Assembly: GCA_964529905.1 (NCBI GenBank)
Contig: CAZGXJ010000003.1
Location: 2,245-66,244 of the forward strand
Length of the DNA: 64,000 nucleotides
From: an uncultured Nitrososphaeria archaeon
GTDB taxonomy: Archaea > Thermoproteota > Nitrososphaeria > Geothermarchaeales > JDFR-13
Direction: 5' to 3'
A program made the translations under genes and the position numbers. The notes under the pieces were generated by a model that saw only the letters and a list, made by a program, of their open reading frames with translations, was not told the origin of the DNA and ran no database searches. Numbering within the stretch: the stretch's first letter is position 1; every line of letters begins with the position of its first letter. Of this stretch, positions 5,486-52,358 are shown one piece after another.

Positions 5486-6319
5486 ATGAATATATCGATA
5501 GGTTTTATACAGCCTAAAATTAGGTTTGGAGATATAGACTATAACATTGAACGTATAGATACACTTGCATCTAAACTAGATGATTTCGACCTAATTGTTC
5601 TACCTGAACTCGTCTATACAGGATATATATTTCTTAATAGGGAGGAGGCTCTAAGGATTGGGAGGAAGTATAGGGAGAAGATGTATAGCCATATAGAGAA
5701 GTTTTCAGATAGATATTCGGCAGTGGTGGTTGCAGGCTTCCCCGAGGCAACAGATGGTAAGGTATATAACTCAGCCTTTATAGCATATAAGGGTGGTGTC
5801 ATAGATACCTATAGGAAGCTCCATCTATTCTATAGGGAGAAGGAATGGTTTGACCCTGGCGATAAGCCTCTAACTATCTATAAAATAGGGAATATGTTTA
5901 GGCTTGGTGTAATGATATGCTTTGATTGGCGTTTCCCTGAGGTAGCGAGGATACTCTCATTAAAAGGTGCAGATATCATAGCGCATCCCAGTAATCTAGT
6001 ATATGACTATGCATATACCGTAATGTTGGCAAGATCCGTAGAGAATAAGGTATATACGATTACATCTAATAGGGTTGGCATAGATGAGAGGGGTGGGATG
6101 AGGATAAGGTTTAAGGGTATGAGCCAGATAGTCTCTCCGGATATGGAGATACTGTATAGGGGTTATAAGTATAGGGAAGATGCCAAAGTTGTTGAGGTAG
6201 ATGTTAATAGGGCTAGGGACAAGATGGCAACCAAGCTGAACCACCTATTTATGGATAGACGAGTCGAATATTATTCAGATCTCCTTGAGTGGAGGACGGT
6301 GGAGCAGCCGGATGGCTAA
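5486..6319 (+). CDS. Carbon-nitrogen hydrolase (nitrilase superfamily)
   Basis: It has the VLPEL glutamate motif, a lysine region, and the MICFDWRFPE catalytic cysteine motif of the E-K-C triad. Confidence 0.7.
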   Translation: MNISIGFIQPKIRFGDIDYNIERIDTLASKLDDFDLIVLPELVYTGYIFLNREEALRIGRKYREKMYSHIEKFSDRYSAVVVAGFPEATDGKVYNSAFIAYKGGVIDTYRKLHLFYREKEWFDPGDKPLTIYKIGNMFRLGVMICFDWRFPEVARILSLKGADIIAHPSNLVYDYAYTVMLARSVENKVYTITSNRVGIDERGGMRIRFKGMSQIVSPDMEILYRGYKYREDAKVVEVDVNRARDKMATKLNHLFMDRRVEYYSDLLEWRTVEQPDG

Positions 6320-7604
6320 AGAACTTGACCATTTCCTAGGAGAGGAATATTTTAGATTAGTAGGTTCAGGTTTTCTAAAGCCAAAGTTATATGATAGTAT
6401 ATGCGTTAGGTGCAGGGGGCGTCTCCTACTATGTGGTAAACCAGTATGCCCAGTTACACTTGAGTTTAAGATATTGCTCGAGTCATATAGGGATCTATAT
6501 AGGGAAAACGTATCTGGTAATAGTCCTCCAAGCGTATTTATTGGGAGATATGGATATCCCAAGGTAAATATGGGTGTTATGACCCCACCAGAGTCTGGAG
6601 ATACATCTATATATGACTATCCTGAGAAGTGGATAGGCCTAAGTCTAGAAGATATTCTAAGGCTTAGGAGTAGATTATTATATGGTTCTAGGAGGATGCA
6701 TATATCAATAGCATCTCGAGGTGATAGGTATTACCAGGAGATACTTGACATATCATTAGCTAGGGTAAGCCCGGAAGTCGAGCTATATTTTGAGAGGAAG
6801 CCTTATAAGACTTTTGAGATTGATGAGGATATAACTCCATTTGGGCCTAGAGCACCTATTAAGAGTATGAGGCTTGGAACTCTTAAGCTTGATTATAGGG
6901 TTGAGAAGATATCATCTGACTATGATATGAAGGCCTCTGAATCAGTTATAAAGCTATATGAACATGGAGTGGAGATTAGTAGGATATCTAAAGTATTTAG
7001 TGTAGGTGGATTCGGCCTAAGGAAGCTCAGAAGATTAGTCCCAACCAGATGGTCTATAACTGCTGTGGATGATATTATTGGACGTTATCTATATAACATA
7101 GTCAAGGATTTGCCATTGATAGACGGTATATATGTATATGAATATAGTGCTTTGGAGAATAGGTATATAGCGATACTATTCCCAAGTAGATGGATGTATG
7201 AATTTATGGAGGCTTGGTATCCGGGGACATTCTGGAATAGGTTGGGTAGTGATGTAGCTGTGGAGGGTGACCATGAATTTGGTAGGCCTAGGTCTGAATA
7301 TGCGGAGATTGGGGGATGCTATTATGCTGCACGCCTAGCTACACTGGAATATCTTAGGAGGATAGGTAGGCAGGCTGGGGTAATAATATTTAGGGAGGCA
7401 TATCCAGGTTACTACTTCCCAGTTGGTGTATGGAGTGTTAGGGAGAGTGTTAGGAAGATGTTTGGGACAAAGCCTATAGAGTTTAAAGACTTTTCAGAGG
7501 CAGTTGAATACATATTTGCTAGGCTTAGAACCCCTAGATATAGATGGAGGAGCAAGATACTTGACCATATTTTCAGGCAGAGGAAATTAACGGAATATAT
7601 GTGA
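6285..7604 (+). CDS. Nre-family protein (archaeal predicted DNA-repair protein, NreA-like) with an N-terminal Cys4 cluster
   Basis: 439 aa. The N-terminal CVRCRGRLLLCGKPVCP cluster recalls the Nre_N zinc-binding motif. Assignment is from memory of the family signature, not from a search. Confidence 0.45.
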   Translation: MSGGRWSSRMAKELDHFLGEEYFRLVGSGFLKPKLYDSICVRCRGRLLLCGKPVCPVTLEFKILLESYRDLYRENVSGNSPPSVFIGRYGYPKVNMGVMTPPESGDTSIYDYPEKWIGLSLEDILRLRSRLLYGSRRMHISIASRGDRYYQEILDISLARVSPEVELYFERKPYKTFEIDEDITPFGPRAPIKSMRLGTLKLDYRVEKISSDYDMKASESVIKLYEHGVEISRISKVFSVGGFGLRKLRRLVPTRWSITAVDDIIGRYLYNIVKDLPLIDGIYVYEYSALENRYIAILFPSRWMYEFMEAWYPGTFWNRLGSDVAVEGDHEFGRPRSEYAEIGGCYYAARLATLEYLRRIGRQAGVIIFREAYPGYYFPVGVWSVRESVRKMFGTKPIEFKDFSEAVEYIFARLRTPRYRWRSKILDHIFRQRKLTEYM

Positions 7605-19312: not shown

Positions 19313-20206
19313 ATGAATCTGGATAACTATGTTTTACAAGTTGTAATTGATGTAGGTAGTATAATCTTGGCGATAGTCATAGTGGCGGTACTAGTTCTCC
19401 TACTCAACGCCTCTATACGAGTAGTAAGGGAGTATGAGAGGGTGGTAGTATTTAGGCTTGGTAGAGCTATAGGAGTTAAGGGTCCTGGCGTAGTCTTCCT
19501 AATACCATTCATTGATAGGCCTGTTAAGGTTGATCTTAGGGAGCAGTTTATAGAGGTCTCTAGGCAGACATGTATAACTAGGGATAATGCACCTGTAGAT
19601 ATAGATTTTCTAATATACTTTAAAGTTTTGGATCCCCTCGGAAGCGTCTTAAACGTTAGGGATTTTAAAGGGGCTGCAACCGGTATTGCAACTACAACCC
19701 TTAGAGCGGTTATAGGTGATATTGATCTGGACTCTGTATTGGCTAGGAGGGAGGAGATAAACAATATTTTGAGGGTTAAGCTGGATGAAGTGACTGGTAG
19801 ATGGGGTGTAAAGATAACTACGGTTGAGATTAGGGAGATAACGCCTCCTAAGGATGTTCAGGAGGCGATGATTCGCCAGATGAGTGCTGAGCGTAATAGA
19901 AGGGCTATGGTGACAGAGGCTGAAGGTAAGAAGGAGTCTGCTATTAGGGTTGCTGAGGGTGAGAAGGAAGGTGCTATTTTAAGGGCTGAGGGTGAGAGGC
20001 AAGCCCTTATTCTAAAGGCTGAGGGATATGCACTAGCCCTTAAAAAGATTCTAGAGGTCGCCAAGGAGCTTGACAAAAATACTATGGCTCTCCAGTATAT
20101 GGAGGTTTTAAAGGAGATGGCTAAGGGTGAAGCCACCAAGATAGTATTACCACTTGAGCTAACTAAATTAATTGAGGATATGAAGAATTTCTTTAGTGGA
20201 GAGTAG
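19313..20206 (+). CDS. Stomatin / SPFH (band 7) family protein
   Basis: N-terminal TM helix, then VVREYERVVVFRLGR...VVFLIPFIDR PHB-domain motifs, and a C-terminal coiled-coil. Confidence 0.85.
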   Translation: MNLDNYVLQVVIDVGSIILAIVIVAVLVLLLNASIRVVREYERVVVFRLGRAIGVKGPGVVFLIPFIDRPVKVDLREQFIEVSRQTCITRDNAPVDIDFLIYFKVLDPLGSVLNVRDFKGAATGIATTTLRAVIGDIDLDSVLARREEINNILRVKLDEVTGRWGVKITTVEIREITPPKDVQEAMIRQMSAERNRRAMVTEAEGKKESAIRVAEGEKEGAILRAEGERQALILKAEGYALALKKILEVAKELDKNTMALQYMEVLKEMAKGEATKIVLPLELTKLIEDMKNFFSGE

Positions 20207-23747: not shown

Positions 23748-23885
23748 TACATTACTTAAGCTATAAAGCTGATAAAAAATTTTTTAAGATAATACGCTGG
23801 GTCGACGATTGGTCAGCCTAATAACCCTTTAATATTTTTAATTTCGATATTGAGATATGTGTACATACCTTGGGAGGTTTAACTA

Positions 23886-25682
23886 ATGTGGGATATTGAA
23901 TCTTTTAAAAATGGTTTAGAATATCTTGATGGTCTATATAGGGATAGGCTTGATAAGATTAGGGATCTAGACATTGACACTGGTGATCTGATACGTGGTT
24001 TGAACGTTGGAGATGCTAAGAAGTATCTTCTGGAATACTTTGGTGAGGGTGAATATAAGGCCCTAGGTATAGATGGATCGATGGAGTATACGGTGGGGCT
24101 AGACGTTATAACAATGTTTGTAGCTGTAGCTGGATATACGTTAAAATTTAGGATTGGTAGGGAGGGTGACATAACTCTCAACTTCAGCGATGTCGAGAAG
24201 ATGGATGCATATAGCATATTTAAGGTTATCCCATTCTGGTTTGAAGATCTAAATGCGTTTAGTGGCGTATCAAATCTATTAGATGATAGGTCCCTAGGTA
24301 AGAGTATAGAATCTATACCTAGGAGTGTCATGACTTTCGGGGAATTCCTATTTGCATATCGAGCGTTGAAATCGGGAGATATCAAAATAGTATTTTTGGA
24401 TAGACCTATTGCAAGTAGCTATGGCCCATATTTCAGAGATGCTAGGGAGCTTATCCTCAGATATAGAGGGGGGATATTTACGTCTGAAGGCTCACCTCTA
24501 GGCCCCATACCCCTAAGAGACCTCTATCTAGCTATATATTTTGGTCCGGACCCCTCAATGATCTCTATCGAGTATAGACCTGGATATAAGATGCATTATA
24601 TTATAAATAAGATGGTTAATTTAGCCTATGAAACTGGTTCAGAGGAGATAGATGTACATATGTTGATGAAGTATCTACCTGATAGGGTCTCAATCGATAG
24701 GCTTTTAAAGAAGCTGGATCAATTTAATAATGAGTTTTTGGATGGATCCTTGATAGATGACATATCACTAAATAGGGTTGTCCTTAACAGGGGTATATAT
24801 AGGTATTGGGATAACGCCTTTAAACTTGTCGATGTCTTTACTAGGTCTCTTCTATATGGGGGTGTGGGTCAGCACCCTCTATATATCAATGGGAAACCCA
24901 TGACTGTCAAAGAGATAAACACATTAACCCTTTTACTATTATATGAGTTGAAACGGGTTGAGGAGGAGGTCGGGGGATTAATTATAGGTATTGGTAAGGA
25001 TACATCCGTTACTGATTTGAATAGGTCTGTAATACCATATCTAAAGAGTGTCGGAAGCTCGATAAACATAGAGACGGTCTCGACAAAGTCGGATAGGAAT
25101 ATGTTAAATATTTTATCGGCACTATTTAGGGATAAATTCCCTACTCCATGGAGGACAGCTGGATATGATAATATATTCTCGAGTCTAATACACGACGGCT
25201 CAGACCTTATACCTGCTAGGAGAAAGGCAGGAGTATCAAGTCTACTTGTTAGAAACTATTTCCAGCTTAGAGAGGTTAGATATCTGGATGACCTATATAT
25301 ACGTAGCCCCATATTCTTCTACGATAGATTCATAAGGGATGGAGACAAGAATTTTATGAGGGATGTAGAACTTAGGCATGTCACAGGTAAATATAGGTCT
25401 AAGATATATCTAGAGTTCCCAGAATCCAATCCATTGGATAACATGATCCTCTATATACTTAGAGCTTTTGATAATGACCAGATAATAGAATCGGCTGGCC
25501 ATAACTATCTACTATTTATAGCTGATAAGGAGGTTAAAAGGATGATTAAAACAATAAGGTCTTCAGTATCTAAAGTTGTTGAGAATACTATGTATAGAAT
25601 GATTAGGAGGTATAACATATACATACTTACAAAGAGTTTTAGGGAGTATAGGGCTCAACTCGAGAGGAGGCGGAGGAGATGA
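23886..25682 (+). CDS. NurA-like nuclease, large divergent paralogue (598 aa)
   Basis: The ordered motifs recall the NurA family: ALGIDGSMEY (the DGS aspartate motif near the N-terminus), an acidic residue about 55 aa later (FWFEDL), VFLDRPI (like the llDGpL motif), and GIGKDTS (like GxSK(D/T)S). The stop overlaps the next gene's start (ATGA), suggesting translational coupling. Confidence 0.5.
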   Translation: MWDIESFKNGLEYLDGLYRDRLDKIRDLDIDTGDLIRGLNVGDAKKYLLEYFGEGEYKALGIDGSMEYTVGLDVITMFVAVAGYTLKFRIGREGDITLNFSDVEKMDAYSIFKVIPFWFEDLNAFSGVSNLLDDRSLGKSIESIPRSVMTFGEFLFAYRALKSGDIKIVFLDRPIASSYGPYFRDARELILRYRGGIFTSEGSPLGPIPLRDLYLAIYFGPDPSMISIEYRPGYKMHYIINKMVNLAYETGSEEIDVHMLMKYLPDRVSIDRLLKKLDQFNNEFLDGSLIDDISLNRVVLNRGIYRYWDNAFKLVDVFTRSLLYGGVGQHPLYINGKPMTVKEINTLTLLLLYELKRVEEEVGGLIIGIGKDTSVTDLNRSVIPYLKSVGSSINIETVSTKSDRNMLNILSALFRDKFPTPWRTAGYDNIFSSLIHDGSDLIPARRKAGVSSLLVRNYFQLREVRYLDDLYIRSPIFFYDRFIRDGDKNFMRDVELRHVTGKYRSKIYLEFPESNPLDNMILYILRAFDNDQIIESAGHNYLLFIADKEVKRMIKTIRSSVSKVVENTMYRMIRRYNIYILTKSFREYRAQLERRRRR

Positions 25683-27445
25683 GGATAGAAAACTTATTTG
25701 ATGAGTTGGATGGAAGACTGGAGGCAAAGGTCAGGGATTATAAAATTGAGAGTGTGAGGTTCCAATTCCACGGGGAGCTCTCGATATTATCGGAGGGTAT
25801 AGCATATATAGACGCGGAATTCGATCTCGATATATTCGATAGACTTCATAAACCAGCTATTATTGGTGTCGAGAGGATGGTTGGTGATTCCCTATGGTAT
25901 ACAATCTTCGAGGTTACATCCGTTAAGGCATACCATTTGGAGATGGGAAGTCTTCAGCCTGATATTCCTCCACTACTTAAATGGGATACTTTGGAGAGGA
26001 TTAGGGAGAGCTGGTATGGAGGCGGTGAGAATTGGATGTCAATCATAGCTGTGAATACGGGATATAGAATTAGGTATTACGATGATGGTGAGGTGGAAGT
26101 TATAAAGGATAATCTAAGCCCATTGATAGGGTCTAAAGCCCATTTAATGAGTGCTGAGCTATATGGCCTACTCATTAATAAGCCTACTACCACATCAATA
26201 AATATAGGTAGGATAGTCGGATATGACTTAGATACCTCTATAGATATATATGCATTGTTTAGGTATCACACAGGTATATTTGGTTATACAGGAACTGGGA
26301 AATCAAATTTAATATCCGTATTGATTAGGGAGGCCATAAATCGACTTGACGATTTAGCAGTAGTCGTTATAGATATCTCAGGCGAATACCCTATCAACCT
26401 ATTGGATCTCCTATCTGAGGTAGGTGAAATATATCTGGATCCATCTATACCTATGGATAGATTTGTCGAGACGACTATATATCCAGAGACATTTGGGGAT
26501 CTATTGAAGCGAAACAATATTGATCCGGAAAATGTATTGGAGGTTTTAAGAGGTATACCTAAGAAATATCTGGAGTCTACACCCCAGTATCTAACAGTGT
26601 ATCATACCATTGAAAGTATTAAGGAGGCTATAGGGAAGGTCCATCCACATCTAAAGCTTCCACTTGAAAGGATTAGGAGGATCCTATATGGATACGACTT
26701 CGACCAATATGTATATGAAATTAGGGATATCTCGACTAATGACTGGAATGAGATTATAGCCACCATTAACTTTGTAAATAGCCAGATTAAGAGGTCCACA
26801 GCTGTGAAGGATCTCTTAAATGGTTTACTGGCAACCATGCAGGTTAAACCCGAGGAGGGTGATAGGAATCCTACCACGTATCAACTATCAAAGAAAATAT
26901 TGTTCGGCGGAGATAAGCGACTATATTTAATCTACTATCCAGAGGCTAACCATGCTAGGGAGTTAATATATAAACTTATAAAGACACTCTTCAATTTCAG
27001 GAAGCGAATGTCTGGTGGTAGAAACATTTTATTGGTTGTGGATGAGGCCCACGAATTTATGCCTAGGGACTCTAAGAAGGAGAATTTTACGTTATACTCT
27101 AGTGAGGCATTAGAGCTCCTATTTAGACAGGGGAGGAAGTATGGAATAGGTGGTTGGATAGCTACTCAGAGGGTTGCCCATCTAAATACAAATATACTCC
27201 AACAGCTCCATAGCTACTTCATATCCGTACTACCTAGATCATATGATAGGAGTGTGATAGCGGATACCTTCTCGATAAGTAAGAGTGTAGTAGATAATGT
27301 AGTTAACTTTGATAAGGGTGAATGGCTATTTATGAGCCATGTAGCTACTAGATATCCCAGTATACCTGTCCGGATCAAAGCTAATAATAATGAGGAGATA
27401 TTAATTAAATGGCTTATATCTAAATGTGGAAATATTAACTCATGA
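25679..27445 (+). CDS. HerA-like ATPase (FtsK/HerA superfamily, DUF87-type)
   Basis: Walker A GYTGTGKSN, Walker B LLVVDEAHEF, and an ATQR...ILQQ segment matching the HerA TQRP...Q region. The ~190-aa N-terminal domain probably corresponds to the HAS barrel. Confidence 0.75.
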   Translation: MRIENLFDELDGRLEAKVRDYKIESVRFQFHGELSILSEGIAYIDAEFDLDIFDRLHKPAIIGVERMVGDSLWYTIFEVTSVKAYHLEMGSLQPDIPPLLKWDTLERIRESWYGGGENWMSIIAVNTGYRIRYYDDGEVEVIKDNLSPLIGSKAHLMSAELYGLLINKPTTTSINIGRIVGYDLDTSIDIYALFRYHTGIFGYTGTGKSNLISVLIREAINRLDDLAVVVIDISGEYPINLLDLLSEVGEIYLDPSIPMDRFVETTIYPETFGDLLKRNNIDPENVLEVLRGIPKKYLESTPQYLTVYHTIESIKEAIGKVHPHLKLPLERIRRILYGYDFDQYVYEIRDISTNDWNEIIATINFVNSQIKRSTAVKDLLNGLLATMQVKPEEGDRNPTTYQLSKKILFGGDKRLYLIYYPEANHARELIYKLIKTLFNFRKRMSGGRNILLVVDEAHEFMPRDSKKENFTLYSSEALELLFRQGRKYGIGGWIATQRVAHLNTNILQQLHSYFISVLPRSYDRSVIADTFSISKSVVDNVVNFDKGEWLFMSHVATRYPSIPVRIKANNNEEILIKWLISKCGNINS

Positions 27446-27533
27446 TATATATATGAGGAATGTAAATGACTATATGTGAGTAATATCTCCATAATAGCAG
27501 TAGTATAATAATATAATATGGGAGGCGTATGGA

Positions 27534-27944
27534 ATGAAGGAGGTTAAAGAGTTAAGGGAGTCTTCTCCTGAGATTTATCCAGTTGATATAGGATTAGTTG
27601 TTAACGAGATAATAAAGATGATTGAGGAGTCTAAAGAGATTAGGTTTAGGAAAGGGAGTGTAAGCAAGGTTATAGAGTTGGGTCAGGCGGATGGAGATAA
27701 CTCATGGAGATATTTTCTAACGTATTATCCATCTACCGGTGACTTTACGATCTCATTAAAGAGGTTTAAAAACCAGTCAAACTCATTCGCTATTTTAAAG
27801 ATAACTGATAAGATTACAGAGGTTGAATCTTTTGAAGATTTCATTGAGAGGGTTGGTAAAGCATATCTAATTTTAAAGGATTTGAAGAAGAGATATTTGA
27901 AGAGGGAGATTGAGGAGGTAAAAAAGAGGAAGCAGCTTATTTAG
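27534..27944 (+). CDS. Hypothetical protein (136 aa), possible accessory component of the NurA/HerA-like module
   Basis: Same strand, 88 bp downstream of the HerA-like gene, and before the convergent RNR gene. No recognisable motif. Charged C-terminal helix. Confidence 0.3.
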   Translation: MKEVKELRESSPEIYPVDIGLVVNEIIKMIEESKEIRFRKGSVSKVIELGQADGDNSWRYFLTYYPSTGDFTISLKRFKNQSNSFAILKITDKITEVESFEDFIERVGKAYLILKDLKKRYLKREIEEVKKRKQLI

Positions 27945-37770: not shown

Positions 37771-38638
37771 ATATCCATCTCCTCAATCCAGCTCTCCTAT
37801 ATCCAATTATAGATCCATTATTTAGAAGCTCATATAGAATGTCCATATCCTCTAATTTAATCAGTAGATGTGTCCCGAAATCCGCTAAAATATTCAGTTT
37901 TTGATATATCATATCTACTACATCTCTATCTACGAGAACTTCATAAATTCCCTCAGTAAATATATCCCTCTTATCTCCGACCCATCTAACCCTACCATCA
38001 CTAATAATCATTAATTTCTCTGATAATACCTCAGCCTCCTCTATTACATGGGTTGTAAAGATAATCCCACCTCTATCCTTCATAACATCGTAGAAAACCC
38101 TTCTATATTTAATATCTAGATTTGATAGTGGTTCATCTAGAATCGCTATCTTATCTCGATATATTATTAGGCTTATCAATAGGGATAATATTTGAGACTG
38201 CCCACTACTTAATTCATATAGTCTCTTTTCCATTATATCATTTAATGGAAGGTCGTCTCCATAATTATCTAAAATGTTTCTCAATCCATCTTTGCCTATG
38301 AGTATATTTAGGATATCTCTTACTCTTAATGCCAAATTATATCTCGGTTTCTCAAAAGTATATGTTATATAGTTATATATTCTCCATCTATTAGAATATG
38401 GTTCTATACCGTTAATATAGGCTTTACCAGATGTAGGCCGTCTAATACCAGATAGTATGGTCAGGAATGTGGTCTTCCCAGATCCGTTCGGACCTACAAT
38501 AGCTATTATATTCCCTGATATCTCTAGATTTAGGTTGTCTAATGCAACCACTCTACCGAATACCTTCCTAAGTTTAACAGCTTTGATGTTAACCATCTTA
38601 CCTCCTCCTAATATGTAGGACGAACATGATGATTGCAA
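37754..38638 (-). CDS. ABC transporter ATP-binding protein
   Basis: Walker A GPNGSGKTT, LSSGQ signature (YELSSGQSQIL), and Walker B ILDEP. Confidence 0.85.
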   Translation of the reverse strand: MQSSCSSYILGGGKMVNIKAVKLRKVFGRVVALDNLNLEISGNIIAIVGPNGSGKTTFLTILSGIRRPTSGKAYINGIEPYSNRWRIYNYITYTFEKPRYNLALRVRDILNILIGKDGLRNILDNYGDDLPLNDIMEKRLYELSSGQSQILSLLISLIIYRDKIAILDEPLSNLDIKYRRVFYDVMKDRGGIIFTTHVIEEAEVLSEKLMIISDGRVRWVGDKRDIFTEGIYEVLVDRDVVDMIYQKLNILADFGTHLLIKLEDMDILYELLNNGSIIGYRRAGLRRWIYAENP

Positions 38639-39608
38639 CAGCCGTTATTACCTCACTTAAAGGTGTCAGACCTATATATAATGTGATTAATCCTAACAGC
38701 CATTCCTGTGATCTAGGGGATATATTTGTATTATAAAGTATCAATTTTTCCCAGTATATGTCAATGGATAGGTTTGCTATATTCCTATATGCATCCCTTA
38801 TAAATGATAGGAAGTCAATATTAAACGTATCTATAAGCATATTTATTATTGGCCCTCCATTTAGATAAATTATCCTACTTAACCTCTCTTCTTTAAAGTC
38901 GTTTGCATAGTCCGATGAGAAGTGGTAGAGAATATATCCATTATCCATTTTTAGGTATGACAGGAACGTTCCTCCATCATATCTATCTCTGAGAAAACCA
39001 CATTTAATGTCGCTATAATATAGCGGAGCCTCACCAATTAATACATCATCATTCAATAGGTAGAACCCAGCCACATATTTCCTGGGTACACCGAATATAG
39101 ATGGTGAGCCGGATAAATCTCCAAATAATATCTTTCCAGGTGATTCACATATGAATATTTTAAGGCTGTACTCAGATACCATTTCCTTTGATGAGGTTGG
39201 GAATAATACCTTTATCATTGGGTGATCCCTATCAACCTGCAGTTCTCTTATAAATATGACCCTCTCTTCGGAGAAGTTAAATATATCCCCTGCTATAAAT
39301 CCGTCTGCTATATCTGTATTGTTAACAACCTTTATCCATATTTCCGCATAACTATCACTAAATGATATATTCAATTTGAAGATGTAATGCCTCGATAAAG
39401 AATTAATAATATGGGTTTCATTATATGTACCTTCAAAAAATATTCTTCCATAATATGTAAACCTTGCCCCATTTTCTATCCCATGTTTGGAAGAGAAATA
39501 TTTAATATATGCCATAGCATATGGAGCTAATATGATTGTGAAGAGTAATAGGAGTAATACCATCCCCACAACTAGATATGTAGATATCCTCATATCCAGA
39601 CACCACAC
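38598..39608 (-). CDS. Membrane-anchored extracytoplasmic protein of unknown function
   Basis: N-terminal and C-terminal TM helices bracket a ~280-aa beta-rich hydrophilic domain. Same operon as the ABC ATPase. Confidence 0.35.
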   Translation of the reverse strand: MWCLDMRISTYLVVGMVLLLLLFTIILAPYAMAYIKYFSSKHGIENGARFTYYGRIFFEGTYNETHIINSLSRHYIFKLNISFSDSYAEIWIKVVNNTDIADGFIAGDIFNFSEERVIFIRELQVDRDHPMIKVLFPTSSKEMVSEYSLKIFICESPGKILFGDLSGSPSIFGVPRKYVAGFYLLNDDVLIGEAPLYYSDIKCGFLRDRYDGGTFLSYLKMDNGYILYHFSSDYANDFKEERLSRIIYLNGGPIINMLIDTFNIDFLSFIRDAYRNIANLSIDIYWEKLILYNTNISPRSQEWLLGLITLYIGLTPLSEVITAVAIIMFVLHIRRR

Positions 39609-43510: not shown

Positions 43511-44314
43511 GTGATGTATTTGGGTATGGTTATTAGGTTTTCAGCTTTTCTCCTTCTTTTAACAATAGTTTTCTTTAGTTTTGGTTATGCTATTTGGTAT
43601 CCATCTATTAGGAGGTATAGACCTGTTATTGGTGGAGTTAAGTATATGTCTGTAAGGGTATATATTGATGGTGATATATCTGAGCCCTATGGGAACTGTA
43701 CTATTGGATATATTGGGAGAGATATGTATGGTAGGAGATATATTGTCTCTGCTTCCCACTGTTTTAACTGGACTAGATCTGGGGTTGGCTGGATATGGAC
43801 CATGCACCAGCCGAAACTATATAGTAATGAGAGGTATGGATATATAGGTAGCCTATCATTTATAAACCAATATGTAGATGCAGCCTTCATATCCCCAATA
43901 ACAAATACAAGAGCAAAAATACTGACAAAACTACCAAGTGGAACACCATACAAAGCAAAAGTAGTAAACTATTACCACATATCAGAAATCAAAAACAATA
44001 TCTTAAAGAATAAAATAATTTTAAAGACTGGATATAGTAGCGGTGTTACTAGAGGTAGTTTCATAGGTTATAGACAAGTTCTATACCTAGCTGGACGGCC
44101 ACTATATTATGTCGTTTTGATCGATATTCCAACACAAGATGGGGATAGCGGTGGGCCTTCATACACCGCTAAATGGGTATTTCAGAGGGGGAGAAGATAC
44201 TATGTATTAAACCTGATAGGGATACTTTCTGCAAATCCCTATTATGCGTGGTTCATATCTGTACATGGTATTGAGTTGATGACAGGCGTTAAACCTATAA
44301 CATATAATGTTTAG
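43511..44314 (+). CDS. Trypsin-like (S1 family) serine protease with an N-terminal signal anchor
   Basis: His-Asp-Ser triad in canonical order: VSASHCF (like TAAHC), VDAAFISP, GDSGGP. N-terminal hydrophobic segment. 267 aa. Confidence 0.6.
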   Translation: MMYLGMVIRFSAFLLLLTIVFFSFGYAIWYPSIRRYRPVIGGVKYMSVRVYIDGDISEPYGNCTIGYIGRDMYGRRYIVSASHCFNWTRSGVGWIWTMHQPKLYSNERYGYIGSLSFINQYVDAAFISPITNTRAKILTKLPSGTPYKAKVVNYYHISEIKNNILKNKIILKTGYSSGVTRGSFIGYRQVLYLAGRPLYYVVLIDIPTQDGDSGGPSYTAKWVFQRGRRYYVLNLIGILSANPYYAWFISVHGIELMTGVKPITYNV

Positions 44315-44317
44315 GGG

Positions 44318-45490
44318 GTGGGATGTGGTATGGAGATAAAATATGTTGTTTTAATATCCCTCCTCATAGGAGTATTATCTTCACCATATCTAGTATATGG
44401 AGTCGATAGGAATAGGTTGGATTATAAAGTTGAGGTATATTTGCTTGATGTAAATAATATCTTCGATAAGTATGGAGATCTATACATACTGAGGAATGAG
44501 TATATTTATCCAGAGAATTTTGTATCGGTTAGTGGACAGATATGGATATCTATCAAGGGTCTAAATGATTGGGATCCAAATGGACATCCATATTTAGAGG
44601 GCTTCACCCTAGATTCAGATATAGGTAATTATTCCGATAACTATTTTTGGAAGAGGATTAGGTGGGATATCTACACATATGTTAAAGACTTGGGATATAG
44701 AGATATCTATGTTGGTATAGCTGGTAATTTAATAGAGATTTCGATTGGCGGAGGGGCTGATCCAAATGACTTATTGAATAACGTTGATGCCATCGGAGAT
44801 ATTTATATGAATTGGATAGGAAAGGCTTTAAAGGCTTTAGAAAGAGAAGGTTTCTATCTACCAATTGATAAATTCCTAGATGGTATAAATAATAGAATTA
44901 GGATAGTTATATTAGAGACGCCTTTCAAAAGATATACGGATAATTTCTCCCTGGATCTCGAACATATCTCAATAACGGATCCCTCAAATATCTATCCAAA
45001 ATATGGATTTATTATCCAGGCAATGGGTCCGGAGACATACTTCGGCGTATATTCGATTGAGATACCTGTGGCATGTGTAGATCCAACATTTAACGTGGAA
45101 TATAATCTATCATCTATAACCGATATACTTGGAAGTATAAGGGAGATAAAAAATGCCTTGTTTGGATATGAAAAGGAGGTTATCATAATACCCACTAAGA
45201 AATGCTATAACGGAAATCCATTTACAGGTCCCGGCTCGGAGGATATAGAAAATAGGGCGAAGGATATAGAACTTTATAAACCTATCCTAGTGAAAGTTAT
45301 TAATTATGGATATGTAGTAGATACCCCAGTAGAGACTAAAGATTCTACTAAAGACTTAATGGATCAAAAACCAAAAGCCGACATAGACATGTCTCAAATA
45401 AAATGGGGTTTAGAATTATTTTTAGCTAGTATAATAGGAATAACTGGATTAATAATCATATTAATATACATATTTAAATCTAAGGGGTAA
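44318..45490 (+). CDS. Cell-surface protein of unknown function (signal peptide, C-terminal TM anchor)
   Basis: N-terminal signal sequence, a ~340-aa hydrophilic domain, and a C-terminal LELFLASIIGITGLIIILIYIF anchor followed by KSKG. It is 4 bp downstream of the S1 protease gene. Confidence 0.35.
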   Translation: MGCGMEIKYVVLISLLIGVLSSPYLVYGVDRNRLDYKVEVYLLDVNNIFDKYGDLYILRNEYIYPENFVSVSGQIWISIKGLNDWDPNGHPYLEGFTLDSDIGNYSDNYFWKRIRWDIYTYVKDLGYRDIYVGIAGNLIEISIGGGADPNDLLNNVDAIGDIYMNWIGKALKALEREGFYLPIDKFLDGINNRIRIVILETPFKRYTDNFSLDLEHISITDPSNIYPKYGFIIQAMGPETYFGVYSIEIPVACVDPTFNVEYNLSSITDILGSIREIKNALFGYEKEVIIIPTKKCYNGNPFTGPGSEDIENRAKDIELYKPILVKVINYGYVVDTPVETKDSTKDLMDQKPKADIDMSQIKWGLELFLASIIGITGLIIILIYIFKSKG

Positions 45491-46230
45491 GGATATGTAA
45501 GCCATACTATTACCCAACATATGACCTATTCATTTTTAGATGTATTCCAAAGAAGTTCCGACAATATGCTGGGGCTCATAAGTGATATAGTAATTTAGTA
45601 TGGAGATAAGATCTAGTTTCCAATTGGGAGATAGCACATTTAATAATCTAAAATAATTTTATTCGATGTGAATGAGGGCTAATATACCTTGTTGAATATA
45701 TCCAGTAGTCTATCCAAACTGTATAAGTAATTCTAACCATCATATATGTTTTAGAGACGATGGCTCTAAAATCGAATTCCCAATAAAAAAATCTCCGCCT
45801 TATCCATACTTACTATATCCTACATTTGGATTCTTGAAACTTATAGTAAACCATCAATACATTAATTCATCATCTATATTTTTTAACAAGTGATCCCATC
45901 TTAAGTGGTTAGACTCCCTAACTGTTGCACCCCGTCCTATGAAGTCAGTTGTATATGAAGCTAGAAATATTTATTCTGAGAATATTTCAGGTAAGAGGTT
46001 TGAGTATATATTATAGTGCTAGATAGAATAATTCAGTCATACTAAACAGCTTATCGGGTGGCCCTAACATATTTATTAATATGGTTATTCCCTCTCAATA
46101 TGCATGGAGGTGGATCGGTCTCTACATCTAAGGAATACTAATTGAAATATTCTTATCTAATCTAGAGTTAAGGTTATTTATAGGGTTGAGACTGGGGATA
46201 TTCTTATAGTGAATATCAAATTTATATGAT

Positions 46231-46641
46231 TCATCCTGTCTTAATGTATCCTTTGTATTTAGATTTCATGACTTTATCCTTAAACTTCTCATCAAACGTG
46301 TTAAGAAGGTCTTCTCTATATATCGCTGTAGCTAAATATACCGAGTCATATATAGTTATTCCCAATTCAACCGCCAATTCTAAGGCCTTATCAATTACCT
46401 CTATAGAATTTATTAATTCAATATATCCCACTATATCCTTCATTATCTTAATTAATTCAACCGCCTCATCAATGCTAATCCTTCGATATAGATATACATG
46501 TTTCCAAACCACATTCATAGATTCTGGAATAATTAGATCGGGAGCTATTATCTCTCCAGTATAAAATATCTTTTTAGCTTCATCAAAGAATTCATCTCTC
46601 ACTAAATAACTAGCTAATACCGATGCATCTATTATAGGCAT
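46231..46641 (-). CDS. vapC: PIN-domain toxin VapC
   Basis: N-terminal MPIIDASVLASYL with the conserved Asp, and 136 aa. It overlaps the upstream antitoxin gene by 1 nt. Confidence 0.7.
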   Translation of the reverse strand: MPIIDASVLASYLVRDEFFDEAKKIFYTGEIIAPDLIIPESMNVVWKHVYLYRRISIDEAVELIKIMKDIVGYIELINSIEVIDKALELAVELGITIYDSVYLATAIYREDLLNTFDEKFKDKVMKSKYKGYIKTG

Positions 46642-46874
46642 TACCTCTCCCTATCCTCCCTAATAAGGATCCAGCTAGGCTTTACGCTACCTCTAGATAC
46701 AAACCTTGAGTTTAACTCCTCAACCCTTTTTAAAGCTCTCCTATATAATTCAGCTTTAACCCTCTCCTCAATAAACCTCCTAATCTCCTTACTCCACTCA
46801 ATATCAACTCTCTCCATATCCTCCCTAAGCGACCTAGGTAGTCTAATTGTATATACAACCATATCTTTACCCAT
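46641..46874 (-). CDS. vapB: VapB-type antitoxin (putative)
   Basis: 77-aa basic protein immediately upstream of and overlapping the PIN gene. The DNA-binding fold is unclear. Confidence 0.45.
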   Translation of the reverse strand: MGKDMVVYTIRLPRSLREDMERVDIEWSKEIRRFIEERVKAELYRRALKRVEELNSRFVSRGSVKPSWILIREDRER

Positions 46875-48005
46875 ATAAAAACCATAATATGATAAAGTAA
46901 TATAAAAGTGTAATACAAATTTAAAATACCTAAAAACTCAATTTTTGGATCATGAAGATACTGTCATATGCTTATTTCTCCAACATTTGTTAATCATGTA
47001 AAATTAAGGAATAGAAGTTGGAACCACACTAAATTCATGTTCTATTATTATTTTGAATCCTTTTTCTATATGATTATTTTTTATTTTATATGGATTTCCT
47101 CCAAATTATCTTTTTGAGGTTTTCCTTATAAACAATTTGATTTCTTCGAATATCTATGTCGTTCCCCCTATAGATGAAATACTATGGATCTCTTCTCTCC
47201 TGTTATTCATTTCTCATTTATATCACAATTCTCAACCTTTAAAAGTGTTGATTCACATGTTGGGTACACATTCTTTACAAATCCCAACACCTTTCCATCT
47301 ATCTCATGCTTCTTAATAATTAGTTTAATGACCCTTAATACTACTCTCAATTAGGACTCTGATATTAGAATGTTTCTTAGGTAACTCCAATAGATTTACT
47401 TAAATTAAGTTTTTGAATAACTTTATTGAACTATTAATCACATCTCAATTTCATTAGTATAACTCATTTGGATATAATCAAGGAGGACATATATCAATTT
47501 AAACATACCTACTTAAGGGAATGTTAGCCATATTCTCCGTCAGTTTATGAAATAATATCAGGTAGGCATAATCAGGATTATAAGAATTACCATGGTTCGT
47601 CTTATTCTTCCTTTAAATCCAATCCCACCATCTAAATATCATTAACTGCAACATCATATTCAGAGACGAGTTCTTTAATATGTTATTTAGTAAGTTCCTT
47701 TAATTGCCAACTCCTCATTTAATCAACTAATTTAAGCCAGTATATTAGTATTCTTGTATACTCAGTTGTCTCAGGAGATCCTAAAGTTGTAAAACATAAC
47801 CAGGAGGTTTCTTAATATCCTGGCTGCCTTTTTAGTTAGATCTGGATGGCTCCGATATACTTTTCATCTTCTTCTATTATCCTAGTTATTATATATGCTC
47901 TACAGATATCTCACCATAGACTTTGGTCAGATATGGAGGCCATCATTGTATCTTCATCGAAGTTAAATCCCTATAATGTTTTTAACCTAGGTTAGTCTTC
48001 CCTCC

Positions 48006-48515
48006 TCATATCTCTATCTCTTTTAGAAACCTAACCCCAAGCCTCCTCAACTCATCTAAAACTGGCTCCATCTCCTTCTCAACACTCCTAAAAACTGGTG
48101 TGGCTTTGAGCCTCTCAGCTGCGGCGATAACATAGCAGTCTGATAAAGCTATGTGTAGGAGCTTCTTTAACTCTCCCGCTCTAACAATTATTTCATCTTC
48201 CATATCGATCACTTTAGCCTTTGCCTTAACCCACTCAACATAGTTTAATGCCTCATCATTTGGATCATGTATTCCAGCTGCTTCATAGATCTTTGAGGCA
48301 ATATATAGCGTCTCGCTTAACGTAAGAGGGGTTATGAGTAGTTCTACCTCTCCTGCCGTCGACCTATTAAATATCTCGTCCACTTTAGGTCTATATACTG
48401 ATCTAAGCACTATATATTCTACCAACACACTCGTATCAAGCACCAGTCTCCTCACGCCGTAGCATCCCCCTATACTTCCCCAGCTCAAGACGATACTCTT
48501 CCCCAAGCAACTCAT
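48006..48515 (-). CDS. vapC: PIN-domain toxin VapC
   Basis: LVLDTSVLVEYI N-terminal PIN motif. It overlaps the AbrB-type antitoxin gene. Confidence 0.65.
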   Translation of the reverse strand: MSCLGKSIVLSWGSIGGCYGVRRLVLDTSVLVEYIVLRSVYRPKVDEIFNRSTAGEVELLITPLTLSETLYIASKIYEAAGIHDPNDEALNYVEWVKAKAKVIDMEDEIIVRAGELKKLLHIALSDCYVIAAAERLKATPVFRSVEKEMEPVLDELRRLGVRFLKEIEI

Positions 48516-48687
48516 TAACTAATCCGGGGTCTACATCTACCACCTTAGGCTTCAAAGTCCTTATAACTAGCCTGTTCCCCCTAACCTCTATAAGGACCTC
48601 ATCCCCCTCCCTTATACCAACCTTCTCCCTTAGCCTCTTAGGCAATATCAAAACACCCTTCTTCCTGACCTTAAGCACAATCCTCAT
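48436..48687 (-). CDS. vapB: AbrB/SpoVT-family antitoxin VapB
   Basis: MRIVLKVRKKGVLILPKRLREKVGIREGDEVLIEVRGNRLVI swapped-hairpin motif. Confidence 0.65.
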   Translation of the reverse strand: MRIVLKVRKKGVLILPKRLREKVGIREGDEVLIEVRGNRLVIRTLKPKVVDVDPGLVNELLGEEYRLELGKYRGMLRREETGA

Positions 48688-48849
48688 AACGATACAAAAA
48701 TGTTAAACCATCTATATAAAGTTTACCATTTTCTAAGCTATCCAACTTTTATAAATAGAATAACGATATGGAATTGTCTAACAAACACTGACAAGGGAAG
48801 CACTACCCAATACCTCTGATCCATCATAAGAAAAGGCTAAACCCAACAT

Positions 48850-49586: not shown

Positions 49587-49638
49587 CAGAGACTATATAT
49601 TTAATCATTTATTCATTCTACCGTCTTCTCATCATCCC
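49587..49638. repeat. 52-nt direct repeat, copy 1 (47/52 identical to copy 2; 28-nt perfect core attcattctaccgtcttctcatcatccc)
   Basis: Direct comparison with 52307-52358. Confidence 0.7.
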
Positions 49639-51522: not shown

Positions 51523-51526
51523 TGTT

Positions 51527-52306: not shown

Positions 52307-52358
52307 CAGAGACTCTATCTCTAATCATCGATTCATTCTACCGTCTTCTCATCATCCC
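52307..52358. repeat. 52-nt direct repeat, copy 2
   Basis: cagagactctatctctaatcatcgattcattctaccgtcttctcatcatccc, matching 49587-49638. Confidence 0.7.

What the first reader, a model, noticed from the sequence alone, without database searches (positions are those of the whole stretch)
23886..27944. Non-canonical NurA-like nuclease plus HerA-like ATPase gene pair, translationally coupled and outside the mre11-rad50 context
The first gene (598 aa) carries the ordered NurA signatures: GIDGS, a downstream acidic residue, FLDRP (like llDGpL), and GKDTS (like SK(D/T)S). The second gene (588 aa) is a clear FtsK/HerA ATPase with Walker A GYTGTGKS, Walker B VVDEAH and an ATQR...Q motif. The stop and start overlap (ATGA). 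A 136-aa ORF of unknown function follows on the same strand.

Canonical archaeal herA and nurA lie in a herA-mre11-rad50-nurA operon, and those proteins are smaller (about 500 and 340 aa). Here the order is nurA-then-herA, both proteins are enlarged, no mre11 or rad50 is present, and the neighbours are housekeeping genes (taw1 and nrdJ).

This looks like a paralogous nuclease-ATPase machine. It could be a dedicated DNA end-processing or repair module. By analogy with bacterial HerA-partnered systems (for example HerA with Sir2 or DUF4297, and stand-alone NurA/HerA pairs implicated in phage defence), it could instead be an uncharacterised archaeal defence module.
Basis: partly seen in the sequence, partly recalled or inferred. 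Interest (0 to 1): 0.85.

Follow-up and report, generated by a model that had tools for sequence, protein, structure and literature searches.

The report
Divergent stand-alone NurA–HerA nuclease–ATPase pair
The two overlapping genes encode a DNA-cutting enzyme (NurA type, unusually long, with an inserted DNA-binding-like domain) and its ring-shaped motor partner (HerA); the pair is stably inherited in many uncultured archaea and labelled only "hypothetical" in databases, so it is a new variant of a known DNA-end-processing machine rather than a new kind of system.

Summary
Window 23886-25682 (598 aa) and 25679-27445 (588 aa) are real genes that overlap by ATGA.

NurA-then-HerA is kept in 78 of 80 related loci across Geothermarchaeota, Nitrososphaeria, Bathyarchaeia, Methanomethylicia, Brockarchaeota and Culexarchaeia. 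The two proteins co-evolve (r 0.96). The neighbours are housekeeping genes, and local synteny survives down to 39% identity. I found no adjacent mre11/rad50, no viral contigs and almost no CRISPR arrays.

The extra length of the NurA is mainly a winged-helix insertion plus terminal helices. HerA is not enlarged compared with euryarchaeal HerA.

Distant branches of the same ~600-aa NurA family sit inside a type III-A CRISPR locus, a dnd cluster, and SIR2 or TGT/DUF6884 islands. The HerA's best model is the "type III coevolved" HerA.

The most likely function is a chromosomal DNA-end processing (repair) machine. A fixed defence role is the main rival. I could not test whether the same genomes also carry a canonical herA/nurA.

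The parts
23886..25682 (+). Long NurA-like nuclease gene (598 aa)
24066..24080 (+). GIDGS motif with catalytic Asp63 (codon 24072-24074), on the first long beta strand
   Evidence: D63 is invariant in 97 of 97 full-length family members. It corresponds in order and secondary-structure element to PfNurA Asp51 (PMC3300031; secondary structure).
24342..24344 (+). Catalytic Glu153 in helix 134-163
   Evidence: Invariant in 97 of 97. Equivalent to PfNurA Glu105 on helix H3.
24393..24407 (+). FLDRP motif with catalytic Asp172 (codon 24399-24401), at the end of strand 166-171
   Evidence: D172 is invariant in 97 of 97. Equivalent to PfNurA Asp126 on strand S4; the E-to-D spacing is 19 residues against 21 in PfNurA.
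24588..24785 (+). Winged-helix-like insertion (about aa 235-300) within a larger helical insertion (about aa 176-362) in the NurA core
   Evidence: The AF2 secondary structure reads H235-250, E254-256, H257-261, H270-284, E290-293, E297-300. Family members give weak HTH-type Pfam hits (MarR_2, HTH_Mga, HTH_11, HTH_24, TrmB); the A1 profile's weak PDB matches to HTH-type proteins fall at profile positions 246-309. The domain boundaries are inferred.
24993..25007 (+). GKDTS motif (K371, D372 invariant)
   Evidence: K371 and D372 are invariant in 97 of 97; T373 is T or S. The motif follows strand 365-370 of the RNase H-like sheet.
25497..25538 (+). C-terminal GHNxLLxxADKxVK motif with Asp547 (codon 25524-25526), the probable fourth metal ligand
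   Evidence: G538 is invariant in 97 of 97 and D547 in 96 of 97; H539 is H in 62 and Y in 34. The motif sits at the start of the C-terminal helix 541-575, where PfNurA has His411. That position is Asp in TmNurA and Ago. Assigning D547 rather than H539 as the ligand is an inference.
25679..25682 (+). ATGA stop/start overlap (translational coupling), preceded by the purine-rich GGAGGCGGAGGAG
   Evidence: The same 4-nt overlap occurs in 31 of 79 related pairs, and 71 of 79 overlap or are no more than 10 nt apart.
25679..27445 (+). HerA-family hexameric ATPase/translocase gene (588 aa)
   Evidence: Pfam DUF87, 61.2 bits against a cut-off of 23.2. PADLOC HerA 'Type III coevolved', 129 bits. NCBIfam HerA equivalogs score 52-71 bits, far below their cut-offs of 800-970. 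phmmer against PDB: SsoHerA 4d2i E 1e-14, with Walker A, Walker B, the RK(Y/F)G segment and (S/T)QR all aligned.
26282..26308 (+). Walker A, GYTGTGKSN (aa 202-210)
   Evidence: Aligned to TGSGKSN of SsoHerA.
27029..27052 (+). Walker B, LLVVDEAH (aa 451-458); followed by QGRKYG (27128-27145) and ATQR (27161-27172)
   Evidence: Aligned to IEEAH, REGRKFG and SQR of SsoHerA.
27534..27944 (+). 136-aa conserved protein of unknown function, 88 nt downstream, with its own Shine-Dalgarno-like GGGAGG and an AT-rich upstream stretch; probably not part of the module
   Evidence: Homologues occur only in L001, L002 (partial), L003 and L054, at 39-69% identity. These are the same loci that share the whole downstream neighbourhood. 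No Pfam, NCBIfam, PADLOC or PHROG hit. The single-sequence AF2 model has pLDDT 68 and has no significant PDB match.
23748..23885 (+). Intergenic region upstream of nurA: AT-rich stretches (possible archaeal TATA/BRE) and GGGAGGT starting at 23872, 8 nt before the ATG
   Evidence: Read directly from the sequence. Promoter function is inferred and was not tested.

Best explanation
The two genes encode a NurA-HerA type machine. By analogy with solved HerA-NurA complexes, a hexameric HerA ATPase ring pushes double-stranded DNA from an end into a dimer of the NurA-fold nuclease, whose two-metal D-E-D-D sites then cut the strands.

This copy belongs to a distinct 'long NurA' subfamily of about 600 aa: a NurA core plus a winged-helix-like insertion and extra terminal helices. 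In the clade that contains the window, the pair is a vertically inherited chromosomal housekeeping module of uncultured Thermoproteota. It most likely processes broken or stalled-fork DNA ends for recombinational repair, physically unlinked from Mre11-Rad50, as in Deinococcus-type and Nitrosocaldus-type gene arrangements.

Shown: the fold, the intact active site, the HerA motifs, obligate pairing and co-evolution, stable synteny, and housekeeping neighbourhoods.

Inferred: complex formation, DNA-end specificity, the repair role, and a DNA-binding or regulatory role for the winged-helix insertion.
For: Fold and active site:
- D63, E153 and D172 are invariant in 97 of 97 family representatives and D547 in 96 of 97. 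They lie on the same structural elements as PfNurA D51/E105/D126/H411.

HerA:
- DUF87 is above the Pfam cut-off, and the ATPase motifs align with SsoHerA.

Pairing:
- The pair is kept, NurA first and HerA second, in 78 of 80 loci.
- 71 of 79 gene junctions overlap or are no more than 10 nt apart.
- The pairwise identity matrices of the two proteins correlate at r 0.96; 0 of 999 Mantel permutations reach that value.

Context:
- Immediate neighbours in the 80 loci are transporters, Taw1, TrkA, peptidases and biosynthetic enzymes. Large ORFs nearby are thermosome, RNR, Lhr and Topo VI. There are few defence hits.
- Only 1 of 80 loci has a CRISPR-like array.
- No relative was found on 2.9 million viral contigs.
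- The block SPFH-NfeD-TrkA/PhoU-Taw1-[pair] is retained in six genomes, down to 39% NurA identity. A second block with a nearby thermosome gene is shared by 19 Nitrososphaerales-type loci.
- The pair's GC content is 0.387 against 0.379 for the window.

Precedent: in Ca. Nitrosocaldus cavascurensis the annotated repair pair is nurA NCAV_1103 next to herA NCAV_1104, with mre11-rad50 at NCAV_1257-1258 (PMC5797428 supplement).
Against: - Every branch outside the core clade whose context I looked at is in a defence or mobile-element setting, apart from one locus (L088): type III-A CRISPR (L081), a dnd cluster (L086), SIR2/ORC-like (L082), and integrase/HNH/TGT/MazG/DUF6884 (L084, L085, L089, L090).
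- The HerA scores about twice as high on the CRISPR type III 'coevolved' HerA profile (129 bits) as on the repair HerA equivalogs (61-71 bits).
- The family is small, with 299 representatives among 1.84 billion. It was found in 137 of the 185,579 species genomes scanned, with a single strict peptide pattern, which suggests a patchy distribution. A universally required repair factor would not be patchy.
- I could not check whether the same genomes also hold a canonical herA/nurA. If they do, this pair has some other, specialised job.
- I could not confirm that the Nitrosocaldus pair belongs to this subfamily. Every core-clade member that carries a name is a 'hypothetical protein' from a MAG.
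Confidence: 0.5

Rival explanations
1. The pair is a fixed, chromosomally 'domesticated' innate defence module. The HerA ring loads on free ends of foreign DNA and the long NurA degrades it, with the winged-helix insertion sensing a DNA feature or a signal. It would be related in mechanism to the CRISPR type III-associated NurA/HerA, the Dnd-linked TdpAB-like pairs, and the HerA-Sir2 and HerA-DUF4297 systems.
For: - The closest HerA profile is PADLOC PDLC01055, 'HerA, Type III coevolved'. That cluster was defined on Caldicellulosiruptor HerA (PMC6546367).
- A Caldicellulosiruptor 616-aa homologue of the NurA, with its HerA, lies between csm genes and csm6 (L081).
- Other branches lie in a dnd cluster (L086), or next to SIR2, DUF6884, TGT, HNH or an integrase.
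- The species distribution is patchy.
Against: - In the window's clade there is no third conserved partner and no enrichment of defence genes among 138 flanking genes.
- A CRISPR-like array occurs in only 1 of 80 loci.
- No viral or mobile-element signature was found.
- Gene order is conserved with housekeeping genes down to 39% identity, which is unlike the rapid turnover of defence islands.
- Base composition matches the flanks.
Confidence: 0.3
2. The pair is a trans-acting accessory of a type III CRISPR-Cas system encoded elsewhere in the genome, a 'Cas-NurA/Cas-HerA' that has drifted away from its cas locus.
For: - The pair shows family-level kinship with the type III coevolved NurA/HerA.
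- CRISPR-associated nurA-herA paralogues are known in Thermoproteales, other crenarchaea and aigarchaea (PMC3396285, PMC3973734, PMC6546367).
Against: - There is no cas gene or array in the 64-kb window.
- Only 1 of 80 related loci has an array within 8 kb.
- No csm6/CARF gene lies beside the pair, whereas the CRISPR-linked pairs are physically embedded with csm6.
Confidence: 0.07
3. The pair performs another HerA/FtsK-type DNA-pumping function with a nuclease attached, for example chromosome resolution or segregation at division, or processing of imported DNA, rather than repair or defence.
For: - HerA belongs to the FtsK-HerA superfamily. NCBIfam CedD (a DNA-import ATPase) scores about as well as the repair HerA models, 60 against 61-71 bits.
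- A role for archaeal HerA outside end resection has been discussed (PMC12977600).
Against: - The obligate partner is a NurA nuclease with an intact active site.
- No Ced or membrane components are adjacent.
Confidence: 0.08

Closest known systems
Archaeal HerA-NurA DNA end-resection complex (S. solfataricus NurA 2YGK and HerA 4D2I; T. kodakarensis complex 9X1L; P. furiosus NurA)
   Same: - The order of catalytic residues is the same, D...E...D...(H/D).
- The partner is HerA, with Walker A/B, RK(Y/F)G and (S/T)QR motifs aligned to SsoHerA.
- The two genes are adjacent and co-transcribed.
   Different: - Sequence identity is only about 13%. Neither the protein nor a family profile finds any solved NurA by sequence.
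- There is no Pfam NurA hit for the window protein.
- NurA is about 600 aa instead of 340-450, with a winged-helix insertion and extra N- and C-terminal helices.
- The pair is not next to mre11-rad50, here or in 80 related loci.
- HerA scores 61-71 bits against NCBIfam equivalog cut-offs of 800-970.
Type III CRISPR-associated ('coevolved') NurA/HerA pair (Bernick 2012; Vestergaard 2014; Shah 2018 clusters 57/58)
   Same: - It is the best-scoring HerA profile (PDLC01055, 129 bits).
- The Caldicellulosiruptor hydrothermalis pair inside a type III-A locus has a 616-aa NurA. The family profile recovers it nearly full length, at an E-value of about 1e-31 for its 50%-identity cluster representative P0200.
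- The gene order is the same, NurA then HerA.
   Different: - That branch is only about 17% identical to the window protein and falls in a separate clade.
- The window's clade has no cas, csm6 or CRISPR linkage.
TdpAB (PDB 8WET) and Dnd-linked HerA/NurA-like pairs
   Same: - A member of the group closest to the core clade (P0145) lies between dndB and dndA/E/D/C (L086).
   Different: - There are no dnd genes in the window or among the neighbours of the 80 loci.
- The TdpB chain in 8wet is 358 aa and lacks the long architecture.
- What TdpAB does rests on my own recollection (a phosphorothioate-dependent restriction system); I did not check it here.
Bacterial NurA-HerA (Deinococcus radiodurans 7F6D; Thermus thermophilus)
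   Same: - It is a stand-alone nurA-herA operon that works without an adjacent mre11-rad50 (PMC12977600).
   Different: - It belongs to a different lineage.
- Its NurA is shorter (the 7f6d_G chain is 332 aa).
HerA-Sir2 and HerA-DUF4297 anti-phage systems
   Same: Both use a HerA-family hexameric ATPase as scaffold and motor for an effector (PDB hits 8xau, 8j4u, 8ziq).
   Different: - The effector here is a NurA nuclease, not Sir2 or DUF4297.
- HerA similarity is weak (E 1e-7 to 1e-9).
- NCBIfam anti-phage HerA equivalogs score 52-66 bits against cut-offs of 800-850.

Membership tests
NurA nuclease family (Pfam PF09376; RNase H/PIWI-like fold) | Three-dimensional fold matching solved NurA structures | tested here: met
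   [not shown]
NurA nuclease family (Pfam PF09376; RNase H/PIWI-like fold) | Conserved metal-binding D, E, D and C-terminal H/D in the correct order and on the correct secondary-structure elements | tested here: met
   D63, E153 and D172 are invariant in 97 of 97 and D547 in 96 of 97. Placement relies on the predicted secondary structure compared with PfNurA D51/E105/D126/H411. No residue-level structural superposition was available.
NurA nuclease family (Pfam PF09376; RNase H/PIWI-like fold) | Significant match to the Pfam NurA profile | tested here: not met
   The window protein has no NurA hit at E <= 1. 15 of 29 homologues do hit it, best E 1.5e-6, so the link by sequence is only transitive.
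NurA nuclease family (Pfam PF09376; RNase H/PIWI-like fold) | Dimer with a central channel; Mn2+-dependent 5'-3' exo/endonuclease activity stimulated by HerA | not testable with these tools
   This needs a multimer model or biochemistry.
HerA ATPase (FtsK-HerA superfamily, Pfam DUF87 PF01935) | DUF87 profile match above the gathering threshold, with Walker A, Walker B, arginine-finger region and sensor motif | tested here: met
   61.2 bits against a cut-off of 23.2. The motifs align with SsoHerA.
Canonical DSB-repair HerA orthologue (NCBIfam NF040819 / NF040937 equivalogs) | Score above the curated equivalog cut-off | tested here: not met
   70.6 bits against 970, and 60.6 bits against 800.
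Canonical herA-mre11-rad50-nurA operon of thermophilic archaea | Physical clustering with mre11 and rad50 | tested here: not met
   No Metallophos/SMC-type neighbours in the scanned ORFs of the window. None among the 138 immediate neighbours or the 78 large ORFs of the 80 related loci.
Canonical herA-mre11-rad50-nurA operon of thermophilic archaea | Being the only herA/nurA of the genome (orthologue versus paralogue) | not testable with these tools
Type III CRISPR-associated NurA/HerA accessory pair | Sequence affinity to the 'Type III coevolved' clusters | tested here: met
   HerA scores 129 bits, E 4e-38, on PDLC01055, its best PADLOC model. The family profile recovers the CRISPR-embedded Caldicellulosiruptor NurA. 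No PADLOC model hits the window's NurA, and only two A1 members give marginal hits to unrelated models.
Type III CRISPR-associated NurA/HerA accessory pair | Location within or next to type III cas genes, csm6 or a CRISPR array | tested here: not met
   No array or cas gene in the window. An array lies within 8 kb in only 1 of 80 loci, L072.
Known HerA-partnered anti-phage systems (Sir2-HerA, HerA-DUF4297, NCBIfam HerA_antiphage) | Sir2 or DUF4297 partner, and an equivalog-level HerA match | tested here: not met
   The partner is a NurA. HerA_antiphage scores 66.4 bits against 800, and HerA_antiphage_2 scores 52.4 bits against 850.
Defence-island resident | Enrichment of known defence genes in the neighbourhood, with a variable genomic position | tested here: not met
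   PADLOC hits among the 138 neighbours are sparse and mostly cross-hits, such as Taw1 matching pVip. Synteny is conserved. This holds for the core clade only; distant clades are in such islands.

The most novel reading that the evidence does not exclude
The ~600-aa winged-helix-bearing NurA and its HerA form an unrecognised, anciently conserved nuclease-translocase of the Nitrososphaeria/Bathyarchaeia-type archaea that works independently of Mre11-Rad50. It would be either the chromosomal ancestor from which the CRISPR type III-, Dnd- and TGT/DUF6884-linked defence nuclease motors were recruited, or a defence module that became permanently fixed as a genome-guarding function alongside a canonical repair pair.
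Probability: 0.25. Interest if true: 0.6.

Novelty: new variant of a known kind. Interest (0 to 1): 0.42.

Why it matters
NurA-HerA is the archaeal counterpart of the eukaryotic long-range resection enzymes. It is essential in Sulfolobus and Thermococcus, yet its real cellular role is still debated (PMC12977600).

This subfamily is invisible to standard annotation: every named member is a 'hypothetical protein'. It nevertheless appears to be the form carried by several large, uncultured archaeal classes.

The same subfamily spans housekeeping loci and several defence settings (type III CRISPR, dnd, SIR2, TGT/DUF6884). It is therefore a good case for asking how repair nuclease-motor complexes are recruited into immunity, or the reverse.

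In practical terms, the result gives a correct annotation for about 300 protein clusters and a defined active site to mutate.

Tried and rejected
- Direct sequence routes to NurA failed. Pfam, NCBIfam, PADLOC and PHROGs give nothing for the 598-aa protein. Neither phmmer nor a 29-sequence profile against PDB sequences finds any NurA. Only structure comparison and hits through homologues made the link.
- A second homologue search with the alignment returned the same 28 proteins and added nothing.
- The afdb50 fold library was not available.
- The viral-contig scan found no relative.
- The 136-aa ORF stayed uncharacterised. The single-sequence model has pLDDT 68 and has no significant PDB match; PUR-alpha/Whirly-like folds appear only at probability below 0.5. 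I therefore treat it as a lineage-specific neighbour and not as a third component.
- I considered that this is the same pair annotated as the HR nurA-herA in Ca. Nitrosocaldus. I could not verify this, because no named member comes from a cultivated or closed genome.
- I considered a CRISPR accessory role and rejected it as the main explanation, because arrays and cas genes are absent from the window and from 79 of 80 loci.
- A literature search for TdpA/TdpB returned only unrelated papers.

Full report
**1. What is in the sequence**

The first two overlap by ATGA, preceded by a purine-rich stretch. A Shine-Dalgarno-like GGGAGGT lies 8 nt before the first ATG, behind an AT-rich intergenic region. 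Every quoted motif is present.

The region has the same base composition as the rest of the window, 0.387 against 0.379 GC. The upstream gene is Taw1. The downstream gene, on the opposite strand, is an ATP-cone ribonucleotide reductase.

The other window ORFs I scanned, the 30 longest of about 80 with at least 100 aa, encode ordinary chromosomal functions or have no Pfam hit. They include shikimate pathway enzymes, SPFH/NfeD, malic enzyme, ATP sulfurylase, IMP dehydrogenase, haem-copper oxidase, phosphate transport, Nre and an Fpg/Nei glycosylase. None is mre11, rad50, cas or a second herA/nurA, and there is no CRISPR array.

**2. The 588-aa protein is a HerA**

- Pfam DUF87 ('Helicase HerA central domain') scores 61 bits against a cut-off of 23.
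- phmmer against PDB sequences finds S. solfataricus HerA first (E 1e-14). Walker A, Walker B, the RK(Y/F)G segment and the (S/T)QR motif all align.
- It is not an equivalog of any curated HerA. The NCBIfam repair, anti-phage and CedD models all score 52-71 bits against cut-offs of 600-970.
- Its best profile anywhere is PADLOC PDLC01055, 'HerA, Type III coevolved' (129 bits).
- Its length is normal for a euryarchaeal HerA (the Thermococcus chain is 592 aa). The claim that HerA is enlarged therefore does not hold.

**3. The 598-aa protein is a NurA, shown by structure rather than by sequence**

The protein hits nothing in Pfam, NCBIfam, PADLOC or PDB sequences. A profile of 29 homologues also fails to find any solved NurA. 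However, 15 of the 29 homologues give weak Pfam NurA hits, best E 1.5e-6.

In 97 full-length representatives of the whole family, D63, E153, D172, K371, D372 and G538 are invariant, and D547 is conserved in 96 of 97. D63 lies on the first long strand, E153 on the following long helix, D172 at the end of the next core strand, and D547 at the start of the C-terminal helix. This is the arrangement of Asp51, Glu105, Asp126 and His411 in P. furiosus NurA. The last of these positions is Asp in TmNurA and Argonaute (PMC3300031). The active site is therefore under purifying selection.

The extra roughly 250 residues, relative to the 339-aa Sulfolobus enzyme, are:
- an N-terminal helix;
- a large insertion between the D172 strand and the next core strand, containing a winged-helix-like unit at about aa 235-300 (secondary structure; weak HTH-type Pfam hits in members);
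- long C-terminal helices.

**4. Distribution and context of the window's clade**

A scan of one genome per GTDB species found 137 relatives, of which the best 80 were fetched. They come from Geothermarchaeota, many Nitrososphaeria/Thaumarchaeota MAGs, Bathyarchaeia, Methanomethylicia, Brockarchaeota, Culexarchaeia and unclassified Thermoproteota. The closest, at 55-58% identity, are Geothermarchaeota-type MAGs, so the window probably comes from that lineage.

- HerA follows NurA on the same strand in 78 of 80 loci. One exception ends at the contig edge.
- 31 of 79 junctions have the same 4-nt overlap, and 71 of 79 overlap or are within 10 nt.
- Pairwise identities of the two proteins across 69 complete pairs correlate at r 0.96, and 0 of 999 Mantel permutations reach that value.
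- No third gene family accompanies the pair. The next most common neighbour family occurs in only 19 loci and is the thermosome.
- The 138 immediate neighbours are dominated by transporters, TrkA, Taw1, peptidases and biosynthetic enzymes. The 78 large ORFs nearby show no Rad50/SMC family. PADLOC hits are sparse and mostly cross-hits.
- Only one locus has a CRISPR-like array within 8 kb.
- No relative occurs in the viral contig collection.
- The block SPFH-NfeD-TrkA/PhoU-Taw1-[NurA-HerA] is kept in six genomes, down to 39% NurA identity. One of these is Ca. Scotarchaeum JdFR-13.

This is the signature of a vertically inherited chromosomal operon, not of a defence island.

**5. The wider family tells a different story**

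An exhaustive profile search of 1.84 billion representative proteins finds only 299 relatives. The full-length ones are all about 570-660 aa, so the long architecture defines the family. Clustering and a rough neighbour-joining tree separate a core clade (54 representatives, including the window) from several outer groups at 17-23% identity. I looked up the genomic context of members of those outer groups.

| Locus | Context of the NurA-HerA pair |
|---|---|
| L081 (Caldicellulosiruptor hydrothermalis) | Between csm1-5 and a csm6/APE2256 gene of a type III-A locus, with arrays |
| L086 | Between dndB and dndA/E/D/C |
| L082, L083 (Thermoplasmataceae) | Next to a SIR2/ORC-like protein, DUF6884 and a methyltransferase, among many small ORFs |
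| L085 | With an integrase, HNH, TGT and MazG |
| L084 | With a second DUF87 protein, a PLD-type protein, TGT and MazG |
| L089, L090 | With DUF6884 and TGT |
| L088 | Plain housekeeping setting |

This agrees with the HerA profile result. The 'Type III coevolved' HerA and NurA clusters of Shah et al. were defined on Caldicellulosiruptor and Vulcanisaeta genes (PMC6546367). CRISPR-linked nurA-herA paralogues have been known since Bernick et al. 2012, who also showed that Pyrobaculum species carry at least three nurA-herA pairs (PMC3396285; PMC3973734).

**6. Interpretation**

That the pair forms an ATP-driven translocase-nuclease acting on DNA ends is a safe inference from the fold, the active site, the obligate pairing and the solved complexes of relatives.

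What it is used for is less certain. For the window's clade I favour a housekeeping DNA-end or fork processing role (confidence about 0.5). The reasons are stable synteny, the housekeeping neighbourhood, native base composition, and the much stronger structural match to the Sulfolobus repair NurA than to any defence-linked relative.

Separation from mre11-rad50 is not an argument against repair. In Ca. Nitrosocaldus cavascurensis the annotated repair genes are nurA NCAV_1103 and herA NCAV_1104, adjacent and in this order, with mre11-rad50 about 150 genes away (PMC5797428 supplement). The Deinococcus pair works without Mre11-Rad50 in the same operon (PMC12977600).

The main rival is a fixed defence or genome-guarding role (about 0.3). 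It draws on the defence contexts of the outer clades, the profile affinity to the CRISPR-coevolved HerA, and the apparently patchy species distribution.

The decisive test is whether the same genomes also contain a canonical herA/nurA and mre11/rad50.

**7. The 136-aa ORF**

It is a real, conserved gene (39-69% identity in L001, L003 and L054). However, it occurs only in the closest relatives, which share the entire downstream neighbourhood. It has its own ribosome-binding site and an AT-rich upstream region. It matches no family, and its low-confidence model has no significant structural neighbour. I do not count it as part of the module.

**8. Novelty and score**

NurA-HerA pairs, stand-alone pairs and paralogous pairs are all known. 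What is new:
- a compact, unannotated subfamily, in which every named member is a 'hypothetical protein';
- its long, winged-helix-bearing NurA;
- its stable presence in several uncultured archaeal classes;
- its kinship with defence-embedded pairs.

That makes it a new variant of a known kind. It would be of moderate interest to specialists in archaeal repair and in defence-system evolution. Interest: 0.42.

Noticed in passing
L082:6475-14954, L083, L089:9001-14051, L090:237-5556, L084, L085: In the distant clades of the long-NurA family, the NurA-HerA pair recurs with DUF6884 (H2O2_YaaD-like) and TGT (tRNA-guanine-transglycosylase/DpdA-like) genes. MazG, HNH, an integrase or a SIR2/ORC-like protein are sometimes present too. 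This looks like a candidate defence or DNA-modification system built around the pair.
   Followed up: partly
L086:6668-19675: A 645-aa long NurA and a 694-aa HerA sit between dndB and a dndA-like desulfurase/dndE/dndD/dndC/dndB cluster. This suggests a phosphorothioate-linked nuclease motor, like TdpAB but with the long NurA architecture.
   Followed up: partly
L081:1061-16589: In Caldicellulosiruptor hydrothermalis the type III-A locus carries the long NurA-HerA pair, flanked on both sides by ATPase_2/DUF234 genes and followed by a Cas_APE2256 (Csm6-type) gene.
   Followed up: partly
window 27534-27944: The 136-aa lineage-specific protein has a predicted helix, four-stranded sheet and long C-terminal helix. 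PUR-alpha/Whirly-type nucleic-acid-binding folds appear among its non-significant structural matches (probability below 0.5).
   Followed up: partly
window 38598-39608 (-), 43511-44314 (+), 44318-45490 (+): Three sizeable ORFs (336, 267 and 390 aa) have no Pfam match at E <= 1e-4. The latter two are adjacent on the same strand.
   Followed up: no
window about 44000-52400: This is the lowest-GC part of the window (0.315-0.368) and has few ORFs of 100 aa or more between about 45.5 and 52.4 kb. It could hold short genes, RNA genes or a foreign insert.
   Followed up: no
window 52304-52359 (-): A C/D-box small RNA matches Rfam sR20 right at the gathering score (44.1 bits against 44). It is the only Rfam hit in the window. 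ARAGORN found no tRNA genes.
   Followed up: no
window 6285-7604 (+) and 53239-54018 (-): Other DNA-repair-related genes lie in the window: an archaeal Nre protein (Nre_N + Nre_C) and an Fpg/Nei-type DNA glycosylase.
   Followed up: no
window 55616-57949 (+): A single 777-aa ORF fuses haem-copper oxidase subunit I (COX1) with a subunit III (COX3) domain, which indicates an aerobic lifestyle for the source organism.
   Followed up: no
window 19952-20025: A 33-bp tandem repeat (2.2 copies, 80% matches) lies inside the 3' part of the SPFH/Band 7 gene.
   Followed up: no
L072:13700-14200: This is the only one of the 80 core-clade loci with a CRISPR-like array (at least 7 repeats). The array begins about 2.3 kb downstream of the HerA gene.
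   Followed up: no
L011, L012, L016, L022, L023, L025-L027, L030, L039, L042, L046-L048, L055, L059, L060, L069, L077: In 19 Nitrososphaerales-type loci a thermosome (Cpn60/TCP-1) gene lies a few kb upstream of the pair. This is a second conserved synteny block. Three other loci have an Lhr-type repair helicase nearby.
   Followed up: partly
window 23879-24385 (-): A 168-aa TTG-start ORF lies antisense to the conserved 5' end of the NurA gene. It is most likely spurious.
   Followed up: no
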